NCBI RefSeq assembly: GCF_009914755.1
Contig: NC_060935.1
Reading direction: 5' to 3' (one strand)
Length of the DNA: 64,000 bases
From: the human T2T-CHM13v2.0 reference genome, Homo sapiens
Shown here in pieces: positions 40,343-56,600 of this stretch. Position numbers and translations under genes: made by a program. Each line of letters opens with the position of its first letter. The stretch's first letter is position 1. The notes under the pieces were generated by a model that saw only the letters and a program-made list of their open reading frames with translations, had not been told where the DNA came from and did not search any database.

Positions 40343-43193
40343 TTTTTTAATTATTTAAGTTCTAGGGTACATGTGCACAACGTGCAGGTTTGTTACGTAT
40401 GTATACATGTGCCATGTTGGTGTGATGCACCCATTAACTCATCATTTACCTTAGCTATATCTCCTAATGCTATCCTACCCCTTCCCCCAACCCCATGACA
40501 GGCCCCGCTGTATGATGTTCCCCTTTCTGTGTCCAACTGTTCTCATTGTTCAATTCCCACCTCTGAGTGAAAACATGCGGTGTTTGGTTTTTTTGTCCTT
40601 GTGATAGTTTGCTCAGAATGATGGTTTCCAGCTTCATCCATGTCCCTACAAAGGACATGAACTCATCCTTTTTTATGGCGGCATACTATTCCATGGTGTA
40701 TATGTGCCACATTTTCTTAATCCAGTCTATCATTGATGAACATTTGGGTTGGTTCCAAGTCTTTGCTATTGTAAATAGTGCCGCAATAAACATAACAGTT
40801 TGATTTATAATCAATAAACATAGCAGCATGATTTATAATCCTTTGGGTATATACCCAGTAATGGGATGGCTGGGTCAAATGGTATTTCTAGTTCTAGATC
40901 CTTGAGGAATCACCACACTGTCTTCCACAATGGTTGAACTAGTTTACAGTCCCACCAACAGTGTAAAAGTGTTCCTATTTCTCCACATCCTCTCCAGCAC
41001 CTGTTGTTTCCTAACTTTTTAATGATCGCCATTCTAACTGATGTGAGATGGTATCTCATTGTGGTTTTGATTTGCATTTCATTGATGTCCAGTGATGATG
41101 AGCATTTTTTCATGTGTCTGTGAACATAAATGTCTTCTTTTGAGAAGCGTCTGTTCATATCCTTCACCCACTTTTTGATGGGGTTCTTTGATTTTTTCTT
41201 GTAAATTTGTTTAAGTTCTTTGTAGATTCTGGATATTAGCCCTTTGCCATATGGGTAGATTGTAAAAATTTTCTCCCATTCTGTAGGTTGCCTGTTCACT
41301 CTGATGGTAGTTTCTTTTGCTGTGCAGAAGCTCTTTAGTTGAATTAGATCCCATTTGTCAATTTTGGCTTTTGTTTCCATTGCTTTTGGTGTTTTAGACA
41401 TGAAGTCCTTGTCCATGCCTATGTCCTGAATGGTATTGCCTGGGTTTTCTTCTAGGGTTTTTATGGCTTTGGGTCTAACATTTAAGTCTTTAATCCATCT
41501 TAAATTAATTTTTGTATAAGGTGTAAGGAAGGGATCCAGTTTCGGCTTTCTACATAGGGCTAGCCAGTTTTCCCAGCACCATTTATTAAATAGGGAATCC
41601 TTTCCCCATTTCTTGTTTTTGTCAGGTTTGTCAAAGATCAGATGGTTGTAGATGTGTGGTATTATTTCCAAGGGCTCTGTTCTGTTCCCTTGGTCTATAT
41701 CTGTTTTGGTACCAGTACCATGCTGTTTTGGTTACTGTAGCCTTGAGGTATAGTTTGAAGTCAGGTAGCGTGATGCCTCCAGCTTTGTTCTTTCGGCTTA
41801 GGATTGTCTTGGTAATGTGGGCTCTTTTTTGGTTCCAAATGAACTTTAAAGTAATTTTTTCCAATTCTGTGAAGAAAGTCATTGGTAGCTTGATGGGGAT
41901 GGCATTGAATCTATAAATTACCTTGGACAATATGGCCATTTTCATGATATTGATTCTTCCTATCCATGAGCATGGAATGTTCTTCCATTTGTTTGTGTCC
42001 TCTTTTGTTTCGTTGAGCAGTGGTTTGTAGTTCTCCTTGAAGAGGTCCTTCGCATCCCTTGTACGTTGGATTCCTAGGTATTTTATTCTCTTTGAAGCAA
42101 TTGTGAATGGGAGTTCCCTCATGATTTGGCTCTCTGTTTGTCTGTTATTGGTGTGTAGGAATGCTTGTGATTTTTGCACATTGATTTTGTATCCTGAGAC
42201 TTTGCTGAAGTTGCTTATCAGCTTAAGGAGATTTTGGGCTGAGACAATGGGGTTTTCTAAATATACAATCATGTCATCTGCAAACGGGACAATTTGACTT
42301 CCTCTTTTCTTAATAGAATACCCTTTATTTCTTTCTCCTGCCTGATTGCCCTGGCCAGAACAGCCAACACTATGTTGAATAGGAGTGGTGAGAGAGGGTA
42401 TCCCTGTCTTGTGCCAGTTTTCAAAGGGAATGCTTCCAGTTTTTGCCCATTCAATATGATATTGGCTGTGGTTTTGTCATAAATAGCTCTTATTATTTTG
42501 AGATACATCCCATCAATACCTAATTTATTGAGAGTTTTTAGCATGAAGGACTGTTGAATTTTGTCAGAGGCCTTTTCTGCATCTATTGAGATAATCATGT
42601 GGTTTCTGTCTTTGGTTCTGTTTATATGCTGGATTACGTTTATTCATTTGTGTATGTTGAACCAGCCTTGCATCCCAGGGATGAAGCCCACTTGATCATG
42701 GTGGATAAGCTTTTTGATGTGCCACTGGATTCAGTTTGCCAGTATTTTATTGAGGATTTTTGCATCGATATTCATCGGGGATATTGGTCTAAAATTCTTT
42801 TTTTATGTGTGTGTCTCTGCCAGGCTTTGGTATGCGGATGATGCTGGCCTCATGAAATGAGTTAGGGAGAATTTTCTATTCATTTTCTATTCATTGGAAT
42901 AGTTTCAGAAGGAATGGTACCAGCTCCTCTTTGTACCTCTGGTAGAATTTGGCTATGAATCCGTCTGGTCCTGGACTTTTTTTAGTTGGTAAGCTATTAA
43001 TCATTGCCTCAATTTCAGAGCCTGTTATTGGTTTATTCAGGGATTCAACTTCTTCCTGGTTTAGTCTTGGGAGGGTGTATGTGTCCAGGAATTTATCAAT
43101 TTCTTCTAAATTTTCTAGTTTATTTGCGTTGAGGTGTTTATAGTATTCTCTGATGAGTAGTTTGTATTTCTGTGGGATTGGTGATAATATCCC
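40343..43193 (-). mobile_element. 5'-truncated L1PA5-like LINE-1 (~2.85 kb) with disrupted ORF2
   Basis: ORF2 peptides in ORFs 40910-41671, 41631-42272, 42269-42598; 16-bp TSD aatgagaccaattctt (40327) / aatgtgaccaattctt (43194). Confidence 0.95.
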
Positions 43194-43209
43194 AATGTGA
43201 CCAATTCTT

Positions 43210-53586: not shown

Positions 53587-53692
53587 TAGTCATGCACTAC
53601 CTAATGACACTTTGGTCAGTGACAGATGACATATACGACTGTGGTCTCATATGATTATTATACTCAAAATTTACTGTACCTTTTCTATGTTT
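53587..53692 (-). mobile_element. Tigger3-family end fragment, cut by the L1PA
   Basis: agtcatgcactacctaatgacactttggtcagtgacaga...ttactgtaccttttctatgttt; reverse complement of the end of the 2439-2736 element. Confidence 0.8.
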
Positions 53693-56600
53693 TTTTAATT
53701 ATACTTTAAGTTTTAGGGTGCATGTGCACAACATGCAGGTTAGTTACCTATGTATACATGTGCCATGTTGATGTGCTGCACCCATTAACTCGTCATTTAA
53801 CATTAGGTATATCTCCTAATGCTATACCTCCCCCAACCCCACAACAGGCCCTGCTGTGTGATATTCCCTTTCCTGTGTCCAAGTGTTCTCATTGATCAAT
53901 TCCCACCTATGAGTGAGAACATGCGGTGTTTGGTTTTTTGTACTTGGGATAGTTTGCTGAGAATGATGGTTTCCAGTTTCATCCATGTCCCTACAAAGGA
54001 CATGAACTCATCATTTTTTATGGCTGCATAGTATTCCATGGTGTATATGTGCCACATTTTCTTAATCCAGTCTATCATTGTTGGACATTTGGCTTGGTTC
54101 CAAGTCTTTGCTATTGTGAATACGGCAGCAGTAAACATACGTCTGCATGTGTCTTTATAGCAGCACAATTTATAATCCTTTGGGTATATACCCAGTAATG
54201 GGATGGCTGGGTCAAATGGTATTTCTAGTTCTAGATCCCTGAGGAATCACCACACTGACTTCCACAATGGTTGAACTAGTTGACAGTCCCACCAACAGTG
54301 TAAAAGTGTTCCTATTTCTCCACATCCTCTCCAGCACCTGTTGTTTCCTGCCTTTTTAATGATTGCCATTCTAACTGCTGTGAGATGATATCTCATTGTG
54401 GTTTTGATTTGCATTTCTCTGATGGCCAGTGATGATGAGCATTTTTTCATGTGTTTCTTGGCTGCATAAATGTCTTCTTTTGAGAAGTGCCTGTTCATAT
54501 CCTTCGCCCACTTGTTGACGTGGTTGTTTGTTTTTTTCTAGTAAATTTGTTGGATTTCATTGTAGATTCTGGATATTAGCCCTTTGTCAGATGAGTAGAT
54601 TGCAAAAATTTTCTCCCATTCTGTAGGTTGCATGTTCACTCTGACGGTACTTTCTTTTGCTGTGCAGAAGCTCTTTAGTTTAATTAGATCCCATTTGTCA
54701 ATTTTGGCTTTTGTTGCCATTGCTTTTGGTGTTTTAGACATGAAGTCCTTGCCCATGCCTATGTCCTGAATGGTATTTCCTAGGTTTTCTTCTAGGGTTT
54801 TTATGGTTTTAGGTCTAACATGTAAGTCTTTAATCCATCTTGAATTAATTTTTGTATAAGGTGTAAGGAAGGCATCCAGTTTCAGCTTTCTACATAGGGC
54901 TAGCCAGTTTTCCCAGCACCATTTATTAAATAGGGAATCCTTTCCCCATTTCTTGTTTTTGTCAGGTTTGTCAAAGATCAGGTAGTTGTAGATAAGCGGC
55001 ATTATTTCTGAGGGCTCTGTTCTGTTCCCTTGGTCTATATCTGTTTTGGTACCAGTACCATGCTGTTTTGGTTACTGTAGCCTTGAGGTATAGTTTGAAG
55101 TCAGGTAGCGTGATGCCTCCAGCTTTGTTCTTTTGGCTTAGGATTGACTTGGCAATGTGGGCTCTTTTCTGGTTCCATATGAACTTTAAAGTAGTTTTTT
55201 CCAATTCTGTGAAGAAAGTCATTGGTAGCTTGATGGGGATGGCATTGAATCTATAAATTACCTTGGGCAGTATGGCCATTTTCACGATATTGATTCTTCC
55301 TACCCATGAGCATGGAATGTTCTTCCATTTGTTTGTATCCTCTTTTATTTCATTGAGCAGTGGTTTGTAGTTCTCCTTGAAGAGGTCCTTCACGTCCCTT
55401 GTAAGTTGGATTCCTAGGTATTTTATTCTCTTTGAAGCAATTGTGAATGGGAGTTCACTCATGATTTGGCTCTCTGTTTGTCTGTTATTGGTGTATAGGA
55501 ATGCTTGTGATTTTTGCACATTGATTTTGTATCCTGAGACTTTGCTGAATTAGCTTATCAGCTTCAGGGGATTTTGGGCTGAGATGATGGGGTTTTCTAG
55601 ATACACAATCATGTCATCTGCAAACAGGGACAATTTGACTTCATCTTTTCCTAGTTGAATACCCTTTATTTCCTTAGTCTGCCTGATTGCCCTGGCCAGA
55701 ACTTCCAACATTATGTTGAATAAGAGTGGTGAGAGAGGGCATCCCTGTCTTCTGCCAGTTTTCAAAGGGAATGCTTCCAATTTTTGCCCATTCAATATGA
55801 TATTGGCTGTGGGTTTGTCATAGATAGCTCTTATTAATTATTTTGAGATACATCCCATCAATACCTAATTTATTGAGAGTTTTTAGCATGAAGGACTGTT
55901 GAATTTTGTCAAAGGCCTTTTCTGAATCTATTGATATAATCATATGGTTTTTGTCTTTGGTTCTGTTTATATGCTGGATTAAGTTTATTGATTTGTGTAT
56001 GTTGAACCAGCCTTGCATCCCAGGGATGAAGCCCACTTGATCATGGTGGATAAGTTTTTTGATGTGCTGCCAGATTCGGTTTGCCAGTATTTTATTGAGG
56101 AGTTTTCCATCGATGTTCATCAGGGATATTGGTGTAAAATTCTCTTTTTTTGTTGTGTCTCTGCCAGGCTTTGGTTTCAGGATGATGCTGTCCTCATAAA
56201 ATGAGTTAGGGAGGATTACCTCTTTTTCTATTGATTGGAATAGTTTCAGGAGGAACAGTACCAGCTCCTCCTTGAACCTCTGGTAGAATTCGGCTGTGAA
56301 GCCATCTGGTCCTGGACTTTTTTTGGTTGGTAAGCTATTAATTATTGCCTCTATTTCAGAGCCTGTTATTGGTCTATTCAGAGATTCTACTTCTTCCTGG
56401 TTTAGTCTTGGGAGGGTGTATATGTCGAGGAATTTATCGATTTCTTCTAGATTTTCTAGTTTATTTGCATAGAGGTGTTTATAGTATTCTCTGATGTTAG
56501 TTTGTATTTCCGTGGGATCGGTGGTGATATCCCCTTTATCATTTTTTTTTTTGCGTCTATTTGATTCTTCTCTCTTTTCTTCTTTATTAGTCTTGCTAGC

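What the first reader, a model, noticed from the sequence alone, without database searches (positions are those of the whole stretch)
41545..55900. Two L1s of different subfamilies 13.3 kb apart share patches of private mutations, including the same frameshift: probable ectopic gene conversion
Seen: 41545-41641 is identical to 54885-54981 (97 bp) and 41671-41793 is identical to 55011-55133 (123 bp), but the 29 bp between the patches differ at 8 positions. Both copies carry tacatagggc (WLAL; remembered consensus WLAI), ttcccttgg, a 2-bp deletion in tctatat--ctgttt that frameshifts ORF2 identically (both read ...[15 protein letters not shown]), and ccttgaggta (KLYL instead of KLYY). Further shared variants are cattcaatatg (42448/55789) and gaaggactgtt (KIQQS instead of KIQQP; 42545/55890). 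Elsewhere the copies keep different diagnostics (agatccttgagg vs agatccctgagg; cacactgtctt vs cacactgactt; tatccatgag vs tacccatgag), i.e. L1PA5-like vs L1PA3/4-like. Inference: because L1 proteins act mainly in cis, an inactivating frameshift is unlikely to be inherited from a shared active source, so repeated short-tract conversion between same-orientation neighbours is the simplest explanation. The pair would also be an NAHR substrate for a ~13-kb deletion or duplication.
Basis: partly seen in the sequence, partly recalled or inferred. Interest (0 to 1): 0.8.

Follow-up and report, generated by a model that had tools for sequence, protein, structure and literature searches.

The report
Neighbouring L1 copies swapped short patches
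Several old LINE-1 fragments within about 65 kb on chromosome 11 share rare mutations that occur together nowhere else in the genome, best explained by short stretches being copied from one neighbour into another, a known process that is seldom documented for LINE-1.

Summary
41545-41641 equals 54885-54981, 41671-41793 equals 55011-55133, and 8 of the 29 bases between them differ.

Both elements are minus-strand, 5'-truncated L1 fragments: A at 40342-43193 and C at 53690-57374. They differ at 13 of 14 subfamily-diagnostic sites. A has its own 11-bp target-site duplication. No flanking sequence is shared.

The variants are not private. Exact genome-wide counts are 55, 36, 65 (of 9,276), 7, 125 and 33. 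The 17 dispersed carriers of V1 or V3 informative there lack the other core variants. The combinations are unique to this locus:
- A 31-mer with the A-to-C change plus the 2-bp loss occurs 3 times in the genome: in A, in C, and in a third L1, D, 16 kb beyond C.
- C shares one unique haplotype with D.
- C shares another unique haplotype with an inverted L1, E, 27 kb away.

Identity runs alone are unremarkable: 23 of 315 dispersed pairs match them.

Best reading is short-tract non-allelic gene conversion among clustered L1s, mostly from A into C. This is a known kind of event and of moderate interest. It was not checked against ape orthologues or other human assemblies.

The parts
40342..43193 (-). 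L1 copy A: a 2.85-kb 5'-truncated 3' fragment of the older 'O' type. Its poly-A tail reads as poly-T at the low end. It is flanked by an 11-bp target-site duplication (GACCAATTCTT) at 40332-40342 and 43199-43209.
47053..47952 (-). L1 copy B: a 0.9-kb 3' fragment in the same orientation. It shares some panel-absent variants with A, but dispersed copies match A as well or better, so this is not counted as conversion.
53690..57374 (-). L1 copy C: a 3.7-kb 5'-truncated 3' fragment of the younger 'M' type. It is the apparent acceptor of A-like patches. It also shares unique haplotypes with D and E, which lie outside the window.
41545..41641 (-). Core patch, part 1 (identical to 54885-54981). It carries the T-to-G variant at 41557/54897 (WLAI to WLAL).
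41642..41670 (-). 29-bp unconverted island (equivalent to 54982-55010) with 8 differences. Four are subfamily-type differences (A older type, C younger type), two are private to A and two are not A's state. One of C's states (A at 54995) is shared with the inverted copy E.
41671..41793 (-). Core patch, part 2 (identical to 55011-55133). It carries the A-to-C variant at 41689/55029 (DQW to DQG), the 2-bp-shorter site at 41700-41701/55040-55041 where the ORF2 frame jumps, and the double change at 41746-41747/55086-55087 (KLYY to KLYL).
42156..42209 (-). Weaker shared patch (identical to 55496-55549). G at 42158/55498 is a state of older L1 types that the younger-type C also carries.
42440..42471 (-). 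Weaker shared patch (identical to 55781-55812). A at 42454/55795 has 125 exact 32-mer matches genome-wide, mostly in older L1s among the six sampled.
42492..42566 (-). Shared patch (identical to 55837-55911). AC at 42550-42551/55895-55896 (KIQQS) has 33 exact matches genome-wide. Five of six sampled carriers are the older type like A.
54626..54660 (-). Double-variant haplotype (A at 54632, C at 54650) shared only by C and D. D's copy is at window coordinates 70639-70673, outside the window.
56719..56814 (-). 96-bp run identical between C and the inverted copy E. It carries three rare variants (56769, 56772, 56784). The 33-mer at 56760-56792 occurs only in C and E genome-wide; E's copy is at window coordinates 83497-83529, outside the window.

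Best explanation
Short-tract non-allelic (ectopic) gene conversion has occurred among independently inserted, 5'-truncated L1 fragments clustered in an L1-dense intron of LINC02755.

Proposed mechanism. A break in one L1 is repaired by invading a neighbouring paralogue and copying a few tens to about 250 bases. The repair resolves without crossover. The copied patch brings along the donor's own decay mutations.

What is shown:
- A (older type) and C (younger type) are separate insertions that keep their own subfamily states.
- They nevertheless share a haplotype of four rare events across 41545-41793 / 54885-55133.
- Part of that haplotype is also in a third neighbour, D.
- C shares other genome-unique haplotypes with D and with an inverted neighbour, E.

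What is inferred:
- The repair mechanism, synthesis-dependent strand annealing. This is from established knowledge of non-crossover repair and is not tested here.
- The direction, mostly A into C. C carries older-type states at 54951, 55498 and 55895-6 that match A.
- The number of events: at least two tracts, or one discontinuous tract, in the core, and perhaps three more further 5'.
- A late date. There are no differences across the 220 identical bases. With recalled neutral rates of about 0.5 to 1.7 x 10^-9 per site per year, that puts the core event within roughly the last 4-14 million years, well after both insertions.
For: 1. Independent insertions. A has an 11-bp target-site duplication. 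The copies have different truncation points. A self-comparison of 154 kb finds homology only inside the L1s.

2. Different subfamilies. At 14 sites that separate my two panel groups, A has the older state at 13 and C the younger state at 13. A and C also differ at 33 sites where both states are common.

3. Each shared variant is rare genome-wide (exact matches):
- T-to-G 33-mer: 55.
- A-to-C 30-mer: 36.
- 2-bp-shorter 32-mer: 65 of 9,276 matches to either form.
- Double-change 33-mer: 7.

4. The variants are not linked elsewhere. Of the dispersed copies fetched for carrying the T-to-G or the double change, the 17 informative there lack the other core variants. A further 12, fetched for the two weaker 5' variants, also lack them. 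The 31-mer joining the A-to-C change and the 2-bp loss has 3 matches in 3.1 Gb: A, C and D, all within 30 kb.

5. Other locus-only haplotypes. The C-D 35-mer has 2 of 2 genome matches here. The C-E 33-mer, with three variants, has 2 of 2 here, and E is inverted and 27 kb away.

6. Empirical null. For variants shared by a pair and absent from the rest of a 27-copy panel, 284 dispersed pairs give counts of 0, 1, 2 and 3 in 195, 73, 13 and 3 pairs. A-C gives 6, C-E gives 7 and C-D gives 3.

7. Direction. Five of six sampled carriers of the AC variant, and five of six carriers of 42454-A, are the older type like A.

8. Precedent:
- Conversion among neighbouring Alus within about 10 kb (passages read in PMC8230782 and PMC6598467).
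- L1-templated repair tracts as short as 13 bp in cultured cells (passage in PMC1920257, citing Tremblay et al. 2000).
[quoted passage not shown] 1991 (seen only in the reference list of PMC5640379).
Against: - The identical runs are not unusual by themselves: 23 of 315 comparable pairs have a run as long.
- Every single variant recurs in other L1s, so one or two of the shared sites could be coincidence. I estimate about 0.6 expected by chance from about 126 private sites in A at about 0.5% each.
- The mosaic needs several short tracts, or a discontinuous one, between sequences only about 92% identical. That is demanding for homologous repair.
- The three 5' patches (42158, 42454, 42550-1) are older-type states. 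One younger-type copy with AC (L069) and one with 42454-A (L063) exist elsewhere. So retention in an intermediate lineage cannot be excluded for those patches one at a time.
- My comparison panel is biased. The DNA search seeds on rare words of the query (23 of its 27 copies carry the 2-bp loss), and other panel members were chosen for carrying a variant.
- The subfamily groups were defined ad hoc from that panel.
- No orthologue, second assembly or read-level check was possible.
- A-B sharing did not stand up. Two dispersed copies match A's 146 bases better than B does, and nine others match equally.
Confidence: 0.8

Rival explanations
1. Common descent. A, C and D (and C and E) are sibling insertions from one source element, or closely related sources, that already carried the shared variants. 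The frameshifted source would have been mobilised in trans.
For: C, D and E are the same panel type, so diagnostic sites cannot separate sibling origin from conversion for the C-D and C-E pairs. All copies are 3' fragments, as expected of retrotransposition products.
Against: A and C differ at 13 of 14 diagnostic sites spread along the whole overlap. The combined haplotypes have no other carrier anywhere in the genome. All supposed siblings would therefore have had to land within 30 kb of each other. D carries only part of the A-C haplotype.
Confidence: 0.05
2. Coincidence. The shared variants are independent recurrent mutations at mutable sites, such as slippage in TATATCTCTG.
For: Each variant recurs in 5 to 123 other copies. 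The 2-bp loss appears in all three of my subfamily groups (3, 7 and 13 of the 23 carriers in the panel). So recurrence is real.
Against: At frequencies of about 0.08-0.7%, the joint presence of four events in two specific neighbours is expected far less than once per genome. The same holds for two of those events in a third neighbour. Multiplying the frequencies of the A-to-C change and the 2-bp loss predicts about 0.25 double carriers genome-wide. Three are seen, all within 30 kb. No dispersed pair in 284 reaches the A-C count.
Confidence: 0.03
3. Assembly or polishing cross-talk between paralogous L1s in T2T-CHM13 created the identical patches.
For: Nothing seen here points to it. It simply could not be tested, because only this assembly is held.
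Against: By inference, the copies are about 92% identical and 13-30 kb apart with unique flanks, so long reads should place uniquely. The shared states are rare variants rather than consensus states. The pattern recurs for three different pairs of copies.
Confidence: 0.05
4. DNA-level duplication. One L1-bearing segment was duplicated locally and the copies then diverged.
For: The copies lie in a cluster. A, B, C and D share one orientation, with spacings of 6.7, 6.6 and 16 kb.
Against: No homology extends beyond the L1 ends in a 154-kb self-comparison. A has its own target-site duplication and D has a probable 9-bp one. Lengths differ (2.85, 0.9, 3.7 and 1.86 kb). A and C are of different subfamily types.
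Confidence: 0.02

Closest known systems
Non-allelic gene conversion between neighbouring Alu elements (Aleshin and Zhi 2010, as described in passages of PMC8230782 and PMC6598467)
   Same: Retrotransposon copies of independent origin share non-diagnostic mutations more often when they are neighbours. The effect is strongest within about 10 kb. Conversions are partial and leave hybrid elements.
   Different: Here the elements are L1 fragments of 2-4 kb, not 300-bp Alus. The partners are 13-30 kb apart and one pair is inverted. This is evidence from one locus, not a genome-wide statistic.
L1 gene conversion: Burton et al. 1991 (title seen in the reference list of PMC5640379); Tremblay et al. 2000 (cited in PMC1920257 for L1-templated break repair with tracts as short as 13 bp); an intrachromosomal L1 conversion proposed at locus NCLI34 (passage in PMC1920257)
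   Same: L1 sequence serves as the template for repair of another L1. Tracts are short and the donor is on the same chromosome.
   Different: Those cases are a replaced whole element, cultured-cell repair events, or a single inserted segment. This locus shows a germline-fixed mosaic of several patches among at least four old, dead copies.
Interlocus gene conversion in segmental duplications and gene families (the general process; Chen et al. 2007 review seen only as a citation in PMC8232201)
   Same: Patchy identity bounded by paralogue-specific differences, and a non-crossover outcome.
   Different: The paralogues here arose by separate retrotransposition events, not by duplication. They are only about 92-95% identical.

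Membership tests
LINE-1 (L1) retrotransposon fragment | Homology to L1 ORF2 protein | tested here: met
   Translations of copy C match solved human ORF2p chains (8c8j, 8uw3, 8sxt, 9k6g, 9hdo) at E = 2.7e-107 and 1.2e-38.
LINE-1 (L1) retrotransposon fragment | Hallmarks of target-primed insertion: a 3' poly-A tail, 5' truncation and a target-site duplication | tested here: met
   A has a poly-T run at its low end and an 11-bp duplication at 40332 and 43199. D has a probable 9-bp duplication. No exact duplication of 8 bp or more was found for B or C.
Named L1PA subfamilies (L1PA5 against L1PA3/4) | Match to the curated subfamily consensus at its diagnostic positions | not testable with these tools
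   Only relative typing was done: A is the older 'O' type and C the younger 'M' type at 13 of 14 panel-defined sites. Private changes number 126 in A and 80 in C.
Non-allelic (interlocus) gene conversion | The partners are paralogues of independent origin, not copies of one duplicated segment | tested here: met
   There is no flank homology, A has its own target-site duplication, and truncation points differ.
Non-allelic (interlocus) gene conversion | Shared derived variants lie in discrete tracts bounded by retained paralogue-specific differences | tested here: met
   The core patches 41545-41641 and 41671-41793 lie between diagnostic differences at 41219, 41644-41660 and 41963.
Non-allelic (interlocus) gene conversion | The shared haplotype is not a family-wide or sub-lineage state | tested here: met
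   The combined k-mers are found only at this locus: 3 of 3, 2 of 2 and 2 of 2 genome matches. None of 12 fully informative single-variant carriers, nor the 17 informative at the core sites, has the others.
Non-allelic (interlocus) gene conversion | A pre-conversion state is seen in an orthologue or another haplotype, giving direction and date | not testable with these tools
   Only this assembly is held and it 'has no relatives here' (tool text). Direction was inferred from subfamily states only.
Non-allelic (interlocus) gene conversion | Statistical excess of long concordant fragments (a GENECONV-type test) | tested here: not met
   GENECONV itself was not run. As a run-length substitute, 23 of 315 comparable dispersed pairs have an identical run of 123 or more. 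The case rests on rare shared variants, not on run length.
Segmental or tandem duplication | Homology continues into the flanks of the repeated element | tested here: not met
   Every match of 400 bp or more at 80% identity or higher in 154 kb starts and ends inside L1 sequence.

The most novel reading that the evidence does not exclude
This 65-kb L1-dense stretch may be a multi-partner conversion network. At least five dead L1 fragments of three subfamily types would be involved, in both orientations and up to 64 kb apart. They would have exchanged patches of about 100 bases or fewer at only 92-95% identity, with copy C as a repeated acceptor.

The T-to-G variant also sits in close pairs of L1s at five other loci. 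That suggests short-tract L1-L1 conversion between neighbours could be widespread enough to blur L1 subfamily calls and divergence-based ages.
Probability: 0.3. Interest if true: 0.6.

Novelty: new member of a known kind. Interest (0 to 1): 0.4.

Why it matters
L1 ages, subfamily assignments and source-element tracing all assume that each fixed copy decays independently. This locus shows old copies importing each other's decay mutations, including a frame-breaking one, long after insertion. Partners include copies 13-30 kb away and one in inverted orientation. If that is common, rare shared variants in L1s cannot be read simply as shared ancestry.

It also shows that these same-orientation copies do pair with one another. 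That is the precondition for deletion or duplication of the 13-kb interval between them. The region is an intron of a long non-coding RNA gene with no known functional element, so no direct phenotypic consequence is expected.

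Tried and rejected
1. Identity-run length as evidence was rejected. 23 of 315 dispersed pairs at similar identity have runs as long.

2. The DNA search for relatives is seeded on rare words. 23 of its 27 copies carry the 2-bp loss, which at first made the loss look like the majority state. Exact pattern counts corrected this to 65 of 9,276.

3. A 'doubleton' count on the full panel put A-C at 2 or fewer, and a rare-state affinity ranking put A-C at only 4 of 84. Both are deflated because the panel includes copies chosen for carrying the A-C variants. I used the 27-copy panel instead.

4. A-B sharing was not accepted. Two dispersed copies match A's 146 bases better than B and nine match equally, so it looks like a sub-lineage effect.

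5. E-G sharing is inconclusive. G ties for best genome-wide match to E's 166 bases with one copy on contig C7.

6. The shared C at 40508/53854 is flanked by differences within 2-4 bases. I treat it as possible coincidence.

7. PRDM9-type 13-mer: 4 matches in the window against 0.41 expected, but none between 40 and 58 kb. It gives no lead on a break hotspot.

8. I looked at one other close pair carrying the T-to-G variant, on contig C1 and 21 kb apart (loci L039 and L040). They are separate insertions with different internal inversion junctions. They share only that one rare variant in 396 bases.

- Dfam subfamily naming.
- GENECONV.
- Ape orthologues.
- Other human assemblies.
- Tremblay et al. 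2000, which is not held.

Full report
**What is there.** The window stretch holds three L1 3' fragments, all on the minus strand. Their poly-A tails read as poly-T at the low-coordinate ends.
- A: 40342-43193, 2.85 kb.
- B: 47053-47952, 0.9 kb.
- C: 53690-57374, 3.7 kb.

I extended the view with the window's own genome, which genome search holds in full. More L1 fragments lie just outside the window:
- D: window coordinates 69694-71557, same orientation, 1.86 kb.
- E: 83405-86602, inverted.
- F: 102823-106512, inverted.
- Several shorter pieces.

A self-comparison of 154 kb finds homology only within the L1s, never in their flanks. A has an 11-bp target-site duplication at 40332 and 43199. D has a probable 9-bp one. 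I found none for B or C. Truncation points differ. These are separate retrotransposition events, not a duplicated block.

**The observation.**
- The 97-bp and 123-bp stretches are identical, and the 29 bases between them differ at 8 positions.
- These are the two longest identical runs of the A-C alignment, which has 245 differences in 2,864 columns.
- The quoted minus-strand translations are right.
- Against solved human ORF2p, the solved protein reads KLYY, DQWN and WLAI where copy C, the one searched, reads KLYL, DQGN and WLAL. A translates the same there. One frame stops aligning at residue 895 and another resumes at 894. So the frame break is real.

The identical runs are not remarkable in themselves. 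Unrelated L1s are often identical over 100-200 bases simply because both still match their ancestor. Among 315 pairs at 90-93.5% identity, 23 have a run of 123 or more.

**Are the variants private?** No. Exact pattern counts over the 3.1-Gb genome are:

| Variant | Positions (A / C) | Pattern | Genome matches |
|---|---|---|---|
| T-to-G | 41557 / 54897 | 33-mer | 55 |
| A-to-C | 41689 / 55029 | 30-mer | 36 |
| 2-bp-shorter form | 41700-1 / 55040-1 | 32-mer | 65 of 9,276 matching either form |
| Double change | 41746-7 / 55086-7 | 33-mer | 7 |
| A | 42454 / 55795 | 32-mer | 125 |
| AC | 42550-1 / 55895-6 | 33-mer | 33 |

The 2-bp loss occurs in all three ad hoc subfamily groups of my panel: 3, 7 and 13 of the 23 carriers. 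It is therefore a recurrent slippage at a short TA/TC repeat, not a lineage marker. A first DNA search made it look like the majority state only because that tool seeds on rare words of the query.

**Are they linked elsewhere?** No, and this is the decisive result.
- Dispersed copies fetched because they carry one variant do not carry the others. The 17 copies informative at those sites and bearing the T-to-G or the double change lack the other core variants (two were cut short before the sites and one ends at the 2-bp site). The 12 copies bearing 42454-A or AC lack all the others.
- The 31-mer that joins the A-to-C change to the 2-bp loss has three matches in the whole genome: A, C and D. From the single frequencies, about 0.25 such copies are expected genome-wide, with no reason to be neighbours.
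- Of the 26 AC-bearing copies that fall in the listed part of the 42454-A table, only A and C appear in both lists. No other scored copy matches C's 131 bases across both sites better than A does.

**A and C are of different subfamilies.** Fourteen sites cleanly separate an older-looking group and a younger-looking group of panel copies. A has the older state at 13 and C has the younger state at 13. These sites are spread from 40362 to 43086. A also carries more private changes than C over the same stretch, 126 against 80. I could not attach Dfam names. Sibling origin from one source is therefore not tenable for A and C.

**More partners.**
- C and D alone share a double variant. The 35-mer has 2 of 2 genome matches at this locus.
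- C and the inverted copy E alone share a triple variant inside a 96-bp identical run. The 33-mer has 2 of 2 genome matches here.
- The T-to-G variant is present in A, C, E and F, that is, four L1s within 64 kb.
- One of C's own states in the 29-bp island (A at 54995) is shared with E. This hints that the island is itself a second exchange nested in the first.

As an empirical null, I counted variants shared by a pair and absent from the rest of a 27-copy panel. For 284 dispersed pairs the counts were 0 in 195, 1 in 73, 2 in 13 and 3 in 3. A-C gives 6, C-E gives 7, and C-D gives 3 in only 1.9 kb.

**Direction and number of events.** Where the shared patches include sites that differ between subfamily types, C carries the older, A-like state:
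- 54951. This is weak: T occurs in 7 of 9 older-type copies against 4 of 12 younger-type copies (tallied).
- 55498.
- 55896.

Five of six sampled AC carriers and five of six 42454-A carriers are the older type. So A was probably the donor and C the acceptor.

The robust core is 41545-41793, interrupted by the 29-bp island. That means two tracts or one discontinuous tract. D received at most about 86 bases (41661-41745), carrying the A-to-C change and the 2-bp loss. The three patches further 5' are each bounded by sites where C keeps its own type, so they would be separate tracts. Individually they could instead be ancestral states retained in an intermediate lineage. One younger-type copy with each state exists elsewhere: L069 and L063.

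**Date.** The date is an inference. There are no differences in the 220 identical core bases. Using recalled neutral rates of roughly 0.5 to 1.7 x 10^-9 per site per year, the core exchange falls within about the last 4-14 million years. That is much later than either insertion.

**Mechanism.** The pattern fits non-crossover repair of a break in one L1, using a nearby paralogue as template:
- The transferred patches are short and sometimes discontinuous.
- The flanks are intact.
- Both of A's target-site duplications are retained.
- One pair of partners is inverted.

The repair pathway itself is inferred from general knowledge, not tested.

**What is known.**
- Non-allelic conversion between retrotransposon copies is established. 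For Alus it is reported to be strongest between neighbours within about 10 kb (passages read in PMC8230782 and PMC6598467).
- For L1 there are older reports. Burton et al. 1991 was seen only in the reference list of PMC5640379. Tremblay et al. 2000 is cited in PMC1920257 for tracts as short as 13 bp. The same paper proposes an intrachromosomal L1 conversion at one locus.
- My searches for phrases such as 'L1 gene conversion' found one paper, and only in its reference list. Broader searches turned up no genome-wide study of neighbour conversion in L1. That is a statement about this library only.

**Verdict.** Not checked: ape orthologues, other human assemblies and reads, and curated subfamily names.

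Noticed in passing
Genome places listed: contig C1 at 102.36 Mb, C3 at 112.25 Mb, C9 at 127.61 Mb, C12 at 23.3 Mb, C23 at 28.54 Mb: The 55 L1 copies carrying the T-to-G variant include close pairs (5-68 kb apart) at five loci besides this one, plus groups in known duplication-rich parts of C16. By my rough estimate, well under one close pair is expected by chance. The C1 pair (loci L039 and L040) are separate insertions that share only this one rare variant in 396 bases.
   Followed up: partly
window 40795-40825: Copy A has an internal anomaly that other copies lack. About 30 bases read as a local repeat of the neighbouring ATAAACATA...GATTTATAATC stretch, replacing the usual sequence.
   Followed up: no
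Window coordinates 85795-85927 (copy E) and 113850-114015 (copy G), both outside the window: E and the short fragment G are inverted relative to each other and 27 kb apart. They share three variants rare in the panel (0, 1 and 1 of 38 copies). G ties with one copy on contig C7 as the best genome-wide match to E's 166 bases. This is suggestive but not decisive.
   Followed up: partly
window 40655-40800 and 47371-47510: A and B share several variants absent from the panel. Two dispersed copies match A's stretch better than B and nine match equally, so this looks like a shared sub-lineage rather than an exchange.
   Followed up: yes
window 54995: Inside the 29-bp island that separates the two A-C patches, C carries a rare A (1 of 40 panel copies) that the inverted copy E also has. 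The island may be a separate C-E exchange.
   Followed up: partly
window 18507, 23464, 27902, 31330: There are four matches to the 13-letter recombination-hotspot motif against 0.41 expected from shuffles. None lies in or between the L1 copies studied.
   Followed up: no
Contig C11, places listed: Eleven of the 65 copies with the 2-bp-shorter form lie on contig C11. Seven of them fall between 22 and 30 Mb, including the three at this locus. That is more than the contig's share of the genome. I have not corrected for L1 density.
   Followed up: no
window 55833-55836 and 53826-53832: Copy C has a private 4-base insertion relative to A and to all 39 other scored genomic matches. It also has a short deletion in the 3' untranslated part.
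   Followed up: no
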